A stretch of DNA of 64,000 nucleotides from Sphingobacteriales bacterium. GTDB taxonomy: Bacteria > Bacteroidota > Bacteroidia > Chitinophagales > Chitinophagaceae. Below are positions 41,526 through 42,740 of this stretch, one piece after another. How positions within the stretch are numbered: position 1 is the first letter of the stretch; every line of letters starts with the position of its first letter. The notes beneath the pieces were generated by a model. That model saw only the letters and a program-made list of their open reading frames with translations, searched no databases and had not been told where the DNA came from. The position numbers and the translations under genes were made by a program. The stretch lies in the NCBI GenBank assembly GCA_016235125.1, contig JACRLZ010000005.1, positions 13,707-77,706 of the forward strand, read 5' to 3'.

Positions 41526-42025
41526 AAAATGCTTTTTCTCAATTTAGCATGTGCACCATGTTGTTACAAATGATGATAGTCAATAGCGGGTTTGATAGAC
41601 ATCAGAAAGATTATTTATAGCCTGTTTAAAATCCGGCGGTTGGTTGAAAATTTTTGCCGTTGGTCTTCCAAAAAACAACACGCCGCCGTTGTGTCTTGTG
41701 TGCAGCCATGCAGCGCAGGCAAGAGACCAACGGCATAAATTATAGAGAACTCACTCAACCCGGCTGTTGGTGAAGCTAACACACAATGCCAGGCACAACA
41801 CAAACAGCGGTGTAACCGGGAGTATATGAAGTTTGCTGAGTGAGTGGCAGTGCTTCGCAGGCGACGAGTCCCTCCGCTGATTTTTCTAAAGTTTAGCCGG
41901 CGTGCTGGAGGAGACTTATCGGGGAAGAAATATCATCAAAAGAACTTAACTTCATCTTAAACTAAATCCGGCTGCGGTTCCGGCTGACGGAACATGGAAT
42001 ACCGGCACATCGCCAATGCGTTGCC

Positions 42026-42740
42026 GTTAGCTGGCATATTAATGGACAACTACAAAAGATATTCATATGAAGAAAGGCACTTTGGCAATTCTCTTACTGT
42101 TACCATTTTTTCTTATGGCACAAATAAATAATAAAGTTTCGGAGGGATTTCTCCAGTCTTTTGCTGACGCATTTAATACTCACGATATTAAAGCAATAAT
42201 GTCACATATGACAGATGATTGTGTATTTGAAGCCTCGGCAGGACCTGATATTGATGGACAAAAATTTATTGGTCAAGAGCAAGTTAAGAAGGCGTTCGAA
42301 GACGTTTTTGCAACCTTCCCTGATGCTCGTTGGAGCAATCCAAGACATTTCATAATAGGCGAGAGAGGTTTCACGGAGTGGATCTTTATTGGGACTAAAA
42401 AAGACGGAGTTAAGGTTGAAGTCACAGGATGTGATTTATTTACCTTTAAGGATGGCAAAATAGCAGTTAAAAACTCTTATAGAAAGAATCGTCTTTCAAC
42501 CAAATGAGGAAAACGCCAGCTAACATGAACTGTGTATATAGGCCATCAGGGAAGGATCATATCGTCAATTCTTATTCTTTTGAAAGCAACCCCGAAAGCA
42601 TTCGGGGCCGCCTTCGCAAGTTTTTTTGCTTCCCGCATAGTCTCCGCTTCACTCACCCTTTTCCTGTCCATGTCTGGCCGTGTGCGGCCAAGTGTGTGCA
42701 AGCAGCCGACTTTGGGCCCTACGGAACACACCGTTAACAT
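42026..42740 (+). mobile_element. Candidate integron-like gene cassette (attC-like cores) carrying one ORF
   Basis: GTTAGCTGGC (42026-42035) before the ORF; its exact reverse complement GCCAGCTAAC (42515-42524) 8 nt after the stop; an imperfect long palindrome closing at CCGTTA (42731). No integrase in the window. Confidence 0.5.
42067..42507 (+). CDS. SnoaL-like / NTF2-family exported protein
   Basis: Signal peptide; FADAFNTHDIKAIMSHMTDDCVF, FATFPDARW, GCDLFTFKDGKIAVKNSYRK. Confidence 0.88.
   Translation: MKKGTLAILLLLPFFLMAQINNKVSEGFLQSFADAFNTHDIKAIMSHMTDDCVFEASAGPDIDGQKFIGQEQVKKAFEDVFATFPDARWSNPRHFIIGERGFTEWIFIGTKKDGVKVEVTGCDLFTFKDGKIAVKNSYRKNRLSTK

What the first reader, a model, noticed from the sequence alone, without database searches (positions are those of the whole stretch)
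41774..42740. Single gene bracketed by attC-like inverted cores: a candidate Bacteroidota integron-like cassette
Seen: the SnoaL/NTF2 ORF is preceded by CC-GTTAGCTGGC (42024-42035). It is followed 8 nt after its stop by the exact reverse complement GCCAGCTAAC (42515-42524). That inverse core opens a ~220-nt imperfect palindrome: TGTGT and TAGGCC pair with GGCC-C-TA and ACACA, with an extra base. The palindrome closes at a second CCGTTA (42731), which is followed 11 nt later by GCTGGCATAT, the same tail as the first core. A further AGCTAAC at 41774 may open an upstream element of similar length. Known: in integron cassettes the AAC core just after the gene is complementary to the GTT core that begins the cassette, and the site works as a folded single strand. 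Inference: this is a site-specifically mobile cassette with unusually long attC-like sites, moved by a recombinase encoded elsewhere. The cores fit GTT/AAC but not strictly RYYYAAC.
Basis: partly seen in the sequence, partly recalled or inferred. Interest (0 to 1): 0.72.

Follow-up and report, generated by a model that had tools for sequence, protein, structure and literature searches.

The report
Integron-type gene cassette in Chitinophagaceae
The small SnoaL/NTF2 gene is a real integron-style mobile gene cassette that turns up in many unrelated genome contexts in Chitinophagaceae (Bacteroidota), but the copy in this window sits alone, has worn recombination sites and no integrase nearby, and is probably a stranded relic.

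Summary
The inverted cores are real and are not chance. Close homologues (91-96% nt) of the gene occur in at least eight unrelated gene contexts. Homology to the window always starts at CCG|TTAGCTGGC (42024) and ends just after GCCAGCTAAC (42525). In related contigs the same gene lies in co-oriented single-ORF arrays separated by well-formed attC-like imperfect palindromes (…TAAC + L'' … L' + GTTAGC…). Two contigs carry a 100% identical ORF plus the same attC between different neighbours, and their homology stops exactly at …AAACGTT|. Across 13 cassette copies (8 distinct cassettes) the 5' core complements the cassette's own inverse core better than the adjacent downstream core (5.6/8 vs 3.2/8). 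This is the split-R' signature of G|TT crossover.

The window copy is degraded. Beyond the cores, the arms of both flanking sites pair no better than controls. The upstream site keeps only a conserved 3' half. The downstream R' is interrupted or fused (GTTAAC + 11 nt + GCTGGCATAT). No tyrosine recombinase is encoded in the 64 kb.

One thing is unexplained: the same ORF plus inverse core is joined to five unrelated attC interiors. Verdict: a new member of a known kind, a CALIN-like cassette remnant in a phylum where integrons are rarely reported.

The parts
41774..41780 (+). AGCTAAC, the candidate inverse core (R'') of the upstream site W1. The assignment is weak.
   Evidence: It pairs with GTTAGCT at 42026-32 in the fold. 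The adjacent 5' arm is not complementary to the 3' arm.
41854..41927 (+). A 74-nt internal module of W1 that is repeated elsewhere in the source community.
   Evidence: The Logan contigs branch here. Depth is 22.8 against about 8. The alternative flanks read …GTATAACTGGTT| and |…AAACCAGTTCATCC, which looks like a compact attC.
41960..42026 (+). The conserved 3' half (L'-spacer-R' G) of an attC family. It belongs to the preceding cassette, which has no ORF or has decayed.
   Evidence: Alignment A3. A sequence model built from A3 scores it at 61 bits; the window is in the training set. The model also finds 15 or more untrained members, all on the + strand of their loci except one in L093. An X9 contig carries this arm followed by a different cassette.
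42026..42035 (+). GTTAGCTGGC, the R' core. The crossover is inferred between G42026 and T42027. TTAGCTGGC is the cassette's own split R'.
   Evidence: Homology to all foreign contexts begins here. It is exactly complementary to 42515-24.
42027..42733 (+). Inferred cassette of 707 bp: leader, SnoaL ORF, inverse core and attC-like remainder. The 5' end is well supported and the 3' end is an inference.
   Evidence: The same cassette with a different attC ends at …AAACG|TT in L097, L098 and L082.
42067..42507 (+). ORF of 146 aa: a SnoaL_2/NTF2-like protein with an N-terminal signal-peptide-like segment.
   Evidence: Pfam PF12680 at E=5e-21. 5022 homologues were found, the closest at 90-96% aa identity.
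42515..42524 (+). GCCAGCTAAC, the inverse core (R'') of the cassette's own attC.
   Evidence: It is conserved in every SnoaL cassette. Homology to foreign contexts ends one base later.
42525..42732 (+). Interior of the downstream site W2. It is unique to this lineage, lacks a significant L'' / L' stem, and contains a CCCCGAA…TTCGGGG hairpin.
   Evidence: The first 12 nt (ATGAACTGTGTA) also follow the R'' of a cassette in L002, the nearest relative at the neighbouring fatty-acid hydroxylase (FAH) locus. Positions 42533-42589 recur behind other R''-like cores in soil and biofilm contigs.
42733..42738 (+). GTTAAC: the candidate R' GTT of W2, directly abutting an AAC.
   Evidence: Read from the sequence. 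In the fold, GTT at 42733-35 pairs with AAC at 42528-30.
42748..42768 (+). GCTGGCATATATTGGAACAGC, a remnant resembling the 5' leader of a SnoaL-type cassette.
   Evidence: Alignment A4: about 18 of 21 positions match the leader at 42030-42052.

Best explanation
[quoted passage not shown] It encodes a probably exported SnoaL/NTF2-like protein and lies in the chromosome of a Chitinophagaceae bacterium from groundwater.

In this family a tyrosine recombinase of the integron-integrase kind is inferred to cut folded single-stranded attC sites at G|TT. As a result each linear cassette starts with its own TT-core (here TTAGCTGGC) and carries the complementary inverse core (GCCAGCTAA-C) just after the gene.

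Shown:
- The family moves as a unit between contexts, with junctions at GTT.
- Relatives have arrays with well-formed attC sites.

Inferred:
- The enzyme is an IntI encoded elsewhere.
- The window copy is a stranded remnant of a small, decayed two-site array (CALIN-like). It sits in the region downstream of the fatty-acid hydroxylase (FAH) gene, where relatives also hold cassette arrays, and is probably no longer excisable.
For: 1. Homology boundaries. blastn homology between the window and 8 or more unrelated contexts (L082, L084, L090, L097, L098, L102, L106 and metagenome contigs) runs only from 42023/24 to 42525, at 85-96% identity. Other metagenomes (air, soil, sediment, biofilm) hold only about 42024-42565 and not the flanks.

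2. Recent movement. L097 and L098 have 100% identical ORFs and the same attC between different neighbours. Their homology starts at GTTAGCTGGC and stops at AAACGTT|.

3. Arrays in relatives. L090 has at least 5 same-strand units separated by imperfect palindromes of the form …TAAC–L''…L'–(A)ACGTTAGCGGNCAT. Several sites show the canonical layout R''–5 nt–L''…L'–6 nt–R' (layout as described in PMC5027507).

4. Site-specific arm complementarity. In 11 of 17 non-window sites the own 3' arm is the best partner among 19, with z from -2 to -6.

5. Split-R' geometry. Across 13 cassette copies (8 distinct cassettes) the start core matches the reverse complement of the cassette's own R'' at 5.6/8 positions. 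The physically adjacent downstream R' matches at 3.2/8 and cross-cassette pairs at 3.0/8. Further 9-10/10 brackets surround Rpn, methyltransferase, 162-aa, 84-aa and 208-aa ORFs.

6. Upstream site. The 3' half of W1 belongs to a conserved attC 3'-half family.

7. Insertion sequence (IS) targeting. An IS110-family transposase fragment sits antisense immediately after the R'' of a cassette in L002. IS1111-attC elements behave this way in integrons (PMC3001079).

8. Relic status. W1 and W2 arms pair no better than controls. The window has no tyrosine recombinase. No other 10/10 GTT…AAC-bracketed ORF or 3'-half-family (R1) site was found in the window.
Against: - No integron integrase or attI was seen in the window or in about 12 related contexts. 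The one integrase found, in L092, is Xer-like, lies next to IS91 and lacks the IntI-specific insertion.
- The cores fit GTT/AAC but not RYYYAAC/GTTRRRY.
- Many sites are 140-270 nt long, beyond the classical 57-141 nt range.
- The same ORF plus R'' is joined to five unrelated attC interiors, with the break right after the R''. Canonical bottom-strand G|TT exchange does not predict this.
- The window cassette is oriented opposite to the cassette arrays found beside FAH in relatives.
- The standard attC covariance model (IntegronFinder) could not be run.
Confidence: 0.78

Rival explanations
1. The window copy is still an active cassette. W2 (42515 to about 42754) is a functional but unusually long attC, and the unit excises as a ~707-bp circle when an integrase encoded elsewhere in the genome is expressed.
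For: The terminal helix including the cores is better than 98.5% of shuffles. The bottom-strand fold gives z=-2.7. In the circular form the R box would be a perfect 10-bp GCCAGCTAAC/GTTAGCTGGC pair. The W2 5' arm is shared with L002 and with soil and biofilm contigs, which suggests a living attC family.
Against: There is no L-box stem beyond chance. The R' is interrupted or fused. The upstream partner site W1 lacks a matching 5' arm. Logan contigs of 4 runs show no joints or alternative forms, though these are contigs only, at low depth. No second context for W2 was found.
Confidence: 0.2
2. The cassettes belong to a Bacteroidota-specific cassette system that resembles integrons but is driven by another enzyme, or it recombines at both R'' and R' so that genes and attC interiors reassort as separate modules.
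For: No IntI was found in any of about 12 contexts. There are five unrelated attC interiors behind one ORF plus R'', while third-codon positions remain 75-92% identical (86-92% for four of the types). The R box is extended to 10-11 bp and the sites are long. IntegronFinder surveys report almost nothing in Bacteroidetes (PMC9024848).
Against: The geometry (AAC/GTT, split R', 5-6 nt spacers, single-ORF arrays, IS110-family targeting) is what IntI systems produce. Contexts were only ±10 kb and mostly come from fragmented metagenome-assembled genomes (MAGs). CALINs without an integrase are common in ordinary integron hosts.
Confidence: 0.12
3. The 10-nt inverted repeats are sites for a DNA invertase, and the 0.5-kb segment is a phase-variable invertible gene (an inverton).
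For: Inverted repeats flank a short segment, and invertons are common in Bacteroidota (my own knowledge).
Against: No inverted form appears in any contig of 12 runs. The segment occurs in unrelated contexts with breakpoints at the repeats, and it travels with a downstream attC. An inverton model does not predict either.
Confidence: 0.02
4. The unit is a non-autonomous transposon bounded by terminal inverted repeats (MITE-like) that carries a passenger gene.
For: It has 10-12 bp terminal inverted repeats and no transposase inside.
Against: There are no target-site duplications at any of the junctions. In L082, L097 and L098 the mobile unit extends beyond the right 'TIR' to include the whole attC and ends at GTT.
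Confidence: 0.02
5. The inverted repeat is a chance match or a regulatory palindrome (an operator, or 5'/3' UTR pairing) of an ordinary vertically inherited gene.
For: Distant homologues (76-80% nt: L093, L094) sit in ordinary contexts without clear cores. 9/10 brackets are common by chance.
Against: There are abrupt homology ends at the cores in many contexts. Third-codon positions are 86-92% identical across contexts, while neighbouring genes shared by L084 and L090 are only about 67% identical. Arrays and paired cores occur around unrelated genes.
Confidence: 0.02

Closest known systems
Integron gene cassettes and attC sites, in particular CALIN (clusters of attC sites lacking an integron integrase) and sedentary chromosomal integron arrays such as the Vibrio VCR arrays
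   Same: Units of a single ORF plus an imperfect palindrome. Invariant AAC…GTT triplets. An R''–spacer–L''…L'–spacer–R' layout. The cassette start is complementary to the cassette's own inverse core. Co-oriented arrays of small accessory genes (SnoaL, DinB, GNAT, glyoxalase-like, lipocalin, DUFs). Similar attCs recur within an array (L097 d0/d2, L090 a0/a3). Identical cassettes occur in different arrays.
   Different: The host is Chitinophagaceae (Bacteroidota). The core is GTTAGC(K)G rather than GTTRRRY. The R box extends to 10-11 bp. Sites are often 140-270 nt. No IntI or attI has been seen. One ORF is joined to five unrelated attC interiors. In the window only a two-site, degraded remnant remains.
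IS1111-attC group insertion sequences and group IIC-attC introns (elements that target attC sites)
   Same: In L002 an IS110-family transposase remnant lies antisense, immediately after the inverse core of a cassette. PMC3001079 describes this position and orientation. The window's W2 begins with the same 12 nt as the L002 junction.
   Different: Only a C-terminal transposase fragment is present in L002. No transposase or intron is present in the window. Beyond 12 nt the sequences are unrelated, so it is unproven that W2 derives from an insertion sequence.
REP/BIME elements with REP-associated tyrosine transposases (RAYT)
   Same: Structured intergenic repeats, with a RAYT-like ORF 1.7 kb away (39903-40384) flanked by hairpin repeats.
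   Different: The RAYT-flanking repeats (CCGATGCGTG…CACGCATCGG) are unrelated to the cores and arms of W1 and W2. REPs do not bracket and move single genes.
Bacteroidota invertons (invertible promoter or gene segments)
   Same: Short inverted repeats flanking a segment of about 0.5 kb.
   Different: No inversion was observed, and the unit relocates between contexts rather than flipping in place.

Membership tests
Integron gene cassette / attC site | Conserved AAC (in R'') and GTT (in R') triplets in inverse orientation at the two ends of the site | tested here: met
   Window: AAC at 42522-24 and GTT at 42733-35 for W2; 41778-80 and 42026-28 for W1. The same holds in most of the 17 related sites; several have a mutated R' triplet (b1, e2, f1, f2, c0).
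Integron gene cassette / attC site | Extended core consensus RYYYAAC / GTTRRRY | tested here: not met
   The cores are AGCTAAC and GTTAGCT. The family consensus is (G)CNGCTAAC / GTTAGCKGNCAT. Only the triplet and the flanking A/T fit. PMC5027507 states that only the AAC triplet is universally conserved.
Integron gene cassette / attC site | L''/L' imperfect inverted repeat forming a hairpin, separated from the R box by unpaired spacers of about 5-6 nt | tested here: inconclusive
   This is met in relatives: type A has AAAAA and TYAAAC spacers, d0 has ATAAA and CAGGCC, and own-arm pairing ranks first in 11 of 17 sites. It is not met for the window's W1 and W2 (z=0.1 and -0.5). Only the terminal helix that includes the cores is significant.
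Integron gene cassette / attC site | Crossover at G|TT, so that the linear cassette begins with its own R' remainder, complementary to its own R'' | tested here: met
   The window gives 10/10 (GTTAGCTGGC against GCCAGCTAAC). Across 13 cassette copies (8 distinct cassettes) the own match is 5.6/8, against 3.2/8 for the downstream R' and 3.0/8 for cross pairs. The L097/L098 junctions lie at GTT.
Integron gene cassette / attC site | The same cassette is found in different arrays or contexts (mobility as a unit) | tested here: met
   There are 8 or more contexts. L097 and L098 share a 100% identical ORF plus attC type A between different neighbours. For the window's own ORF plus W2 combination, no second context was found.
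Integron gene cassette / attC site | Site length within the classical 57-141 bp range | tested here: not met
   W1 is about 260 nt and W2 about 220-240 nt. Relatives range from 67 to 207 nt.
Integron gene cassette / attC site | Recognition by the IntegronFinder attC covariance model | not testable with these tools
   That model is not available here. No attC family was hit in Rfam, at gathering thresholds or at E≤1.
Complete integron | An adjacent integron integrase (a tyrosine recombinase with the IntI-specific insertion) together with attI and Pc | tested here: not met
   Pfam scans of 29 ORFs, including all ≥100-aa ORFs in 27-50 kb and every 300-430-aa ORF, found no tyrosine recombinase. 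None was found in the related loci. The L092 enzyme scores 150 bits against the 265-bit cut-off of TIGR02249 and lacks model positions 177-254.
CALIN (cluster of at least 2 attC sites without an integrase) | Two or more attC sites in the same orientation, close together, with no IntI nearby | tested here: inconclusive
   Two attC-like sites flank the ORF in the same orientation and no IntI is present. Both sites are structurally incomplete, so a standard caller might report none or one.
Inverton | Both orientations of the segment between the inverted repeats exist in a population | tested here: not met
   No strand-switch joints were found in contigs of 12 runs. The data are contigs only, so sensitivity is low.

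The most novel reading that the evidence does not exclude
Chitinophagaceae chromosomes carry a large reservoir of attC-bounded cassettes that current integron surveys miss. In this reservoir the gene (with its R'' core) and the attC interior reassort as separate modules. This would imply recombination at the inverse core as well as at G|TT, for example frequent top-strand events, or a recombinase other than a classical IntI.
Probability: 0.15. Interest if true: 0.8.

Novelty: new member of a known kind. Interest (0 to 1): 0.55.

Why it matters
Integrons are a major route of gene capture in bacteria, but the largest survey read here reports almost none in Bacteroidetes (PMC9024848).

This locus and its relatives show that soil and freshwater Chitinophagaceae exchange single-gene cassettes with integron-type junctions. 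They keep arrays of such cassettes beside conserved chromosomal genes, and the sites are often long and atypical enough that standard callers may miss them.

That widens the known host range and site diversity of cassette systems. It also gives a concrete set of sites (types A to E behind one gene) for testing how genes and attC sites become joined, which is a long-standing open question about cassette genesis.

For this window itself the practical message is modest: one accessory gene of cassette origin, now probably fixed.

Tried and rejected
- Repeat search inside the window. The cores and both flanking intergenic regions have no other copy in the 64 kb.
- Rfam and tRNA scans found nothing relevant.
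- Synteny through the neighbouring fatty-acid hydroxylase (FAH) gene. FAH–proline racemase–oxidase synteny is conserved in 80 metagenome-assembled genomes (MAGs), but SnoaL is never beside FAH, so no empty-site allele could be defined.
- Generic attC detectors of my own (an anchored alignment and an arm-fold scan) were either too strict or unspecific and were abandoned.
- The exact 20-mer scan of JGI metagenome contigs for W2 returned only three chance hits in coding DNA.
- The search for W2 or W1 in other runs found only the same organism (X1-X4, X10).
- The integrase search was negative in the window and loci. The L092 integrase is an IS91-associated Xer-like enzyme.
- The plasmid collection holds only distant (≤62% aa) NTF2 homologues in Proteobacteria.
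- The sigma-70 promoter and terminator scan was uninformative.
- A link to the nearby RAYT-like gene was rejected, because its flanking repeats are unrelated to W1 and W2.
- The inverton and MITE readings were rejected (see the rival explanations).
- Whether W2 is an insertion-sequence or MITE remnant inserted after the R'' was considered. The points in favour are the 7-nt direct repeat TAACATG at 42521-27 and 42735-41, and the 12 nt shared with the L002 IS110 junction. This could not be decided.
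Full report
**Observation**

- CCGTTAGCTGGC lies at 42024-35.
- The ORF at 42067-42507 encodes 146 aa and hits SnoaL_2 at E=5e-21. 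It has an N-terminal signal-peptide-like segment.
- The exact reverse complement GCCAGCTAAC lies at 42515-24.
- CCGTTA lies at 42731-36, and GCTGGCATAT follows 11 nt later at 42748-57.
- AGCTAAC lies at 41774-80.

The 10-mer occurs nowhere else in the window. The two flanking intergenic regions (41526-42066 and 42508-42871) have no other copy in the 64 kb. Rfam and tRNA scans are empty.

**Organism and setting**

The window comes from a groundwater metagenome. The neighbouring fatty-acid hydroxylase (FAH, 43714-45021, minus strand) is 77-84% identical at the protein level to the closest Chitinophagaceae and Chitinophagales metagenome-assembled genomes (MAGs).

The surroundings are ordinary chromosome: DnaK, PurK, BshC, proline racemase and others. 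No tyrosine recombinase is encoded anywhere in the window.

**The decisive comparison**

The SnoaL protein has thousands of homologues, the closest at 90-96% aa identity. Contigs carrying them place the gene in quite different neighbourhoods:
- next to an Rpn/PDDEXK_2 gene (L082);
- between a methyltransferase and an alcohol dehydrogenase (L084-L089);
- in a run of small same-strand ORFs (L090);
- next to ORF11_beta (L097);
- next to a 162-aa ORF (L098);
- after an FA_hydroxylase and Asp_Arg_Hydrox pair (L102);
- after a sensor kinase (L106).

Nucleotide homology to the window is confined to 42023/24-42525 in every case, which is core to core (alignments A1 and A2). Other metagenomes (air, soil, sediment, biofilm) likewise contain only about 42024-42565 and not the flanks.

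Third-codon positions are 86-92% identical between the window and these copies. The neighbouring genes shared by L084 and L090 are only about 67% identical. The unit is therefore younger than its surroundings, which means it has moved.

**What the unit is**

In L090 at least five units lie head to tail on one strand. They are separated by imperfect palindromes that open with …TAAC and close with (A)ACGTTAGCGGNCAT. One example is CTGCTAAC-GGCGGTTTGGCAAAAGTGGCGG…CGCCACCTTTGCCAAGCCGC-AAAAC-GTTAGCGG.

L082, L097/99/100 and L098/101 carry the SnoaL gene followed by one and the same site:
GCCAGCTAAC-AAAAA-GTATGCGAAATGGTGGCGC…GCYACCACTTCGCATAC-TYAAAC-GTT.

L097 and L098 have 100% identical ORFs. They differ upstream of G|GTTAGCTGGCAT and downstream of AAACGTT|.

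Several sites have the canonical R''–5 nt–L''…L'–6 nt–R' layout described for attC sites (PMC5027507).

Two quantitative tests support this.
1. Arm complementarity. For 11 of 17 non-window sites the site's own 3' arm is the best pairing partner of its 5' arm among 19 candidates, with z from -2 to -6. The arms differ between sites but stay complementary within a site.
2. Split-R' geometry. Across 13 cassette copies (8 distinct cassettes) the core at the start of a cassette matches the reverse complement of that cassette's own inverse core at 5.6 of 8 positions. It matches the physically adjacent downstream core at 3.2 of 8 and cross-cassette cores at 3.0 of 8.

That second result is the signature of crossover at G|TT, which splits each site's R' between the end of one linear cassette and the start of the same cassette. 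A bracket scan found further 9-10/10 GTT…AAC pairs around an Rpn gene, a methyltransferase, and 84-, 162-, 208- and 212-aa ORFs in the cassette-bearing loci. Only the SnoaL ORF has such a bracket in the window. These are integron-type gene cassettes. The exact inverted repeat in the window is the cassette's own split R' facing its R''.

**State of the window copy**

The window copy is degraded in three ways.

- W1 (41774-42026). The upstream site keeps a 3' half that belongs to a conserved family: GGCTGCGGTTCCGGCTGACGGAAC…GGAATACCGGCACATCGCCAATGCGTTGCC-GTTAGC (alignment A3). A sequence-only model of this half finds 15 or more further members in Chitinophagaceae loci. All but one (L093) lie on the + strand of their locus. 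None other is found in the window. The 5' half of W1 does not pair with the 3' half. W1 also contains a 74-nt module (41854-41927) that occurs elsewhere in the source community inside what looks like a compact attC.
- W2 (42515 to about 42754). The downstream site has the conserved R'' but an interior found in no other context. Its arms pair no better than controls (z=-0.5). Only when the cores are included does the 5' end find its best partner at the 3' end, through GCCAGC/GCTGGC, CATG/CATG, AAC/GTT, TGTGT/ACACA and GGCC/GGCC (-15.4 kcal/mol against a null of -10.4±1.9; 3 of 200 shuffles as good).
- The 3' end of W2 reads CCGTTAAC-ATGCGAAGT-GCTGGCATATATTGGAACAGC. The GTT abuts an AAC. The tail resembles the 5' leader of a SnoaL-type cassette (alignment A4).

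I read this as debris of a small array, in the order:
1. a preceding cassette that has no ORF or has decayed;
3. the stump of another cassette.

No alternative joints were seen in contigs of the source runs, but these are low-depth contigs and a weak test.

**Location**

In three relatives, cassette-like units or decayed attC sites lie directly downstream of the orthologous FAH gene:
- L002: GTTGTATGCA–ORF152–TGCATACAAC;
- L012;
- L053, with three model hits.

The neighbourhood appears to be a recurrent array site in this lineage. There the cassettes are co-oriented with FAH, whereas the window cassette is inverted relative to it.

In L002 the R'' is followed by ATGAACTGTGTA, the same 12 nt that follow the R'' in the window, and then by an antisense IS110-family transposase fragment. 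IS1111-attC elements and group IIC-attC introns are known to insert antisense near the 5' end of attC sites (PMC3001079). This fits an integron-type target. Whether W2 itself contains insertion-sequence debris could not be decided.

**Unexplained**

The same ORF with the same R'' (…GAAAAACGCCAGCTAACA) is joined to five unrelated site interiors:
- type A: L082, L097, L098;
- type B: L090, X9, X16 and, diverged, L084;
- type C: the window, X5, X10;
- type D: L102;
- type E: L106.

The break lies immediately after the R''. Type A interiors diverge at about the same rate as the ORF, so the other types are replacements and not decay.

Canonical bottom-strand exchange at G|TT moves the whole site with the gene and does not predict this. 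Two readings are possible:
- recombination at the AAC of R'', that is, top-strand events. PMC5027507 notes that these cut in R'' and invert cassettes;
- gene conversion of the ORF among older paralogous cassettes.

Neither was tested.

**What is missing**

No integron integrase or attI was found in the window or within ±10 kb (or to the contig end) of the gene in about 12 contexts. The one integrase seen (L092) is Xer-like, lies next to an IS91 transposase and lacks the IntI-specific insertion. The IntegronFinder attC model could not be run.

**Known or new**

Integron cassettes, CALINs and attC-targeting insertion sequences are well known. Integrons are listed for Bacteroidota at phylum level (PMC8618304, PMC9668308). 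In the RefSeq survey only In0 elements and one complete integron (Salinibacter) were reported for Bacteroidetes (PMC9024848). Searches of the held literature found no description of cassette arrays in Chitinophagaceae or Chitinophagales.

I file this as a new member of a known kind. There is a minority possibility that the modular gene/attC reassortment or the enzyme is unusual.

Noticed in passing
window 39853-40578: Two adjacent ORFs (39903-40094 and 40097-40384) carry an HUH-like motif (VIMPNHLHFIW), typical of IS200/IS605-type Y1 or REP-associated tyrosine transposases. They appear split by a frameshift or stop. They are flanked by 30-nt inverted repeats containing the hairpin CCGATGCGTG…CACGCATCGG (39853-82 and 40549-78). 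Pfam gave no hit. L027 encodes a 66% identical homologue.
   Followed up: partly
window 43561-43607: The short hairpin repeat TGCTGGCTTGCCCACCGAAGCTTCAGCGGAGGTGGGATACTGGATACTGG recurs, with different flanks and at elevated depth, in many unrelated metagenomes (X2, X7, X10, X14, X16). It looks like a widespread REP-like element of this group.
   Followed up: no
window 41649-41741: An 18-nt inverted repeat, AATTTTTGCCGTTGGTCT / AGACCAACGGCATAAATT, is 94% complementary and 57 nt apart. The order GTT…AAC mimics a tiny ORF-less cassette. It may be more array debris upstream of W1.
   Followed up: no
L002 11370-12335: In the nearest relative at the FAH locus, a 152-aa cassette with a perfect 10/10 core bracket lies directly after FAH. 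Its R'' is followed by an antisense IS110-family transposase C-terminal fragment, an IS1111-attC-like insertion.
   Followed up: partly
L053 12900-18400; L012 11900-12000: Several decayed attC 3' halves lie downstream of the orthologous FAH gene, among small same-strand ORFs. Their cores are mutated to GAT, ATT or GCT. The FAH-adjacent region looks like a conserved cassette-array site.
   Followed up: partly
L092 6717-8777: A Xer-like tyrosine recombinase lies immediately upstream of an IS91-family (Y2) transposase, inserted in a run of small cassette-like genes. It lacks the IntI-specific insertion.
   Followed up: partly
L082 4903-5843: An Rpn/PDDEXK_2 'recombination-promoting nuclease/putative transposase' gene is itself bracketed by perfect cores (GTTACCCCTC…GAGGGGTAAC). 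It is therefore carried as a cassette.
   Followed up: no
L018 3788-3850: A tandem 7-nt repeat (GTTTGTA)n lies upstream of a 144-aa ORF. Related AACTACAAAC repeats lie downstream of it. This produced many spurious bracket hits.
   Followed up: no
window 32764-34956 (minus strand): A cluster of small accessory-type genes (glyoxalase, AraC-type HTH, GNAT, OmdA/YdeI) has short intergenic gaps and no attC-like sites. The content is cassette-like but the genes are not cassettes.
   Followed up: partly
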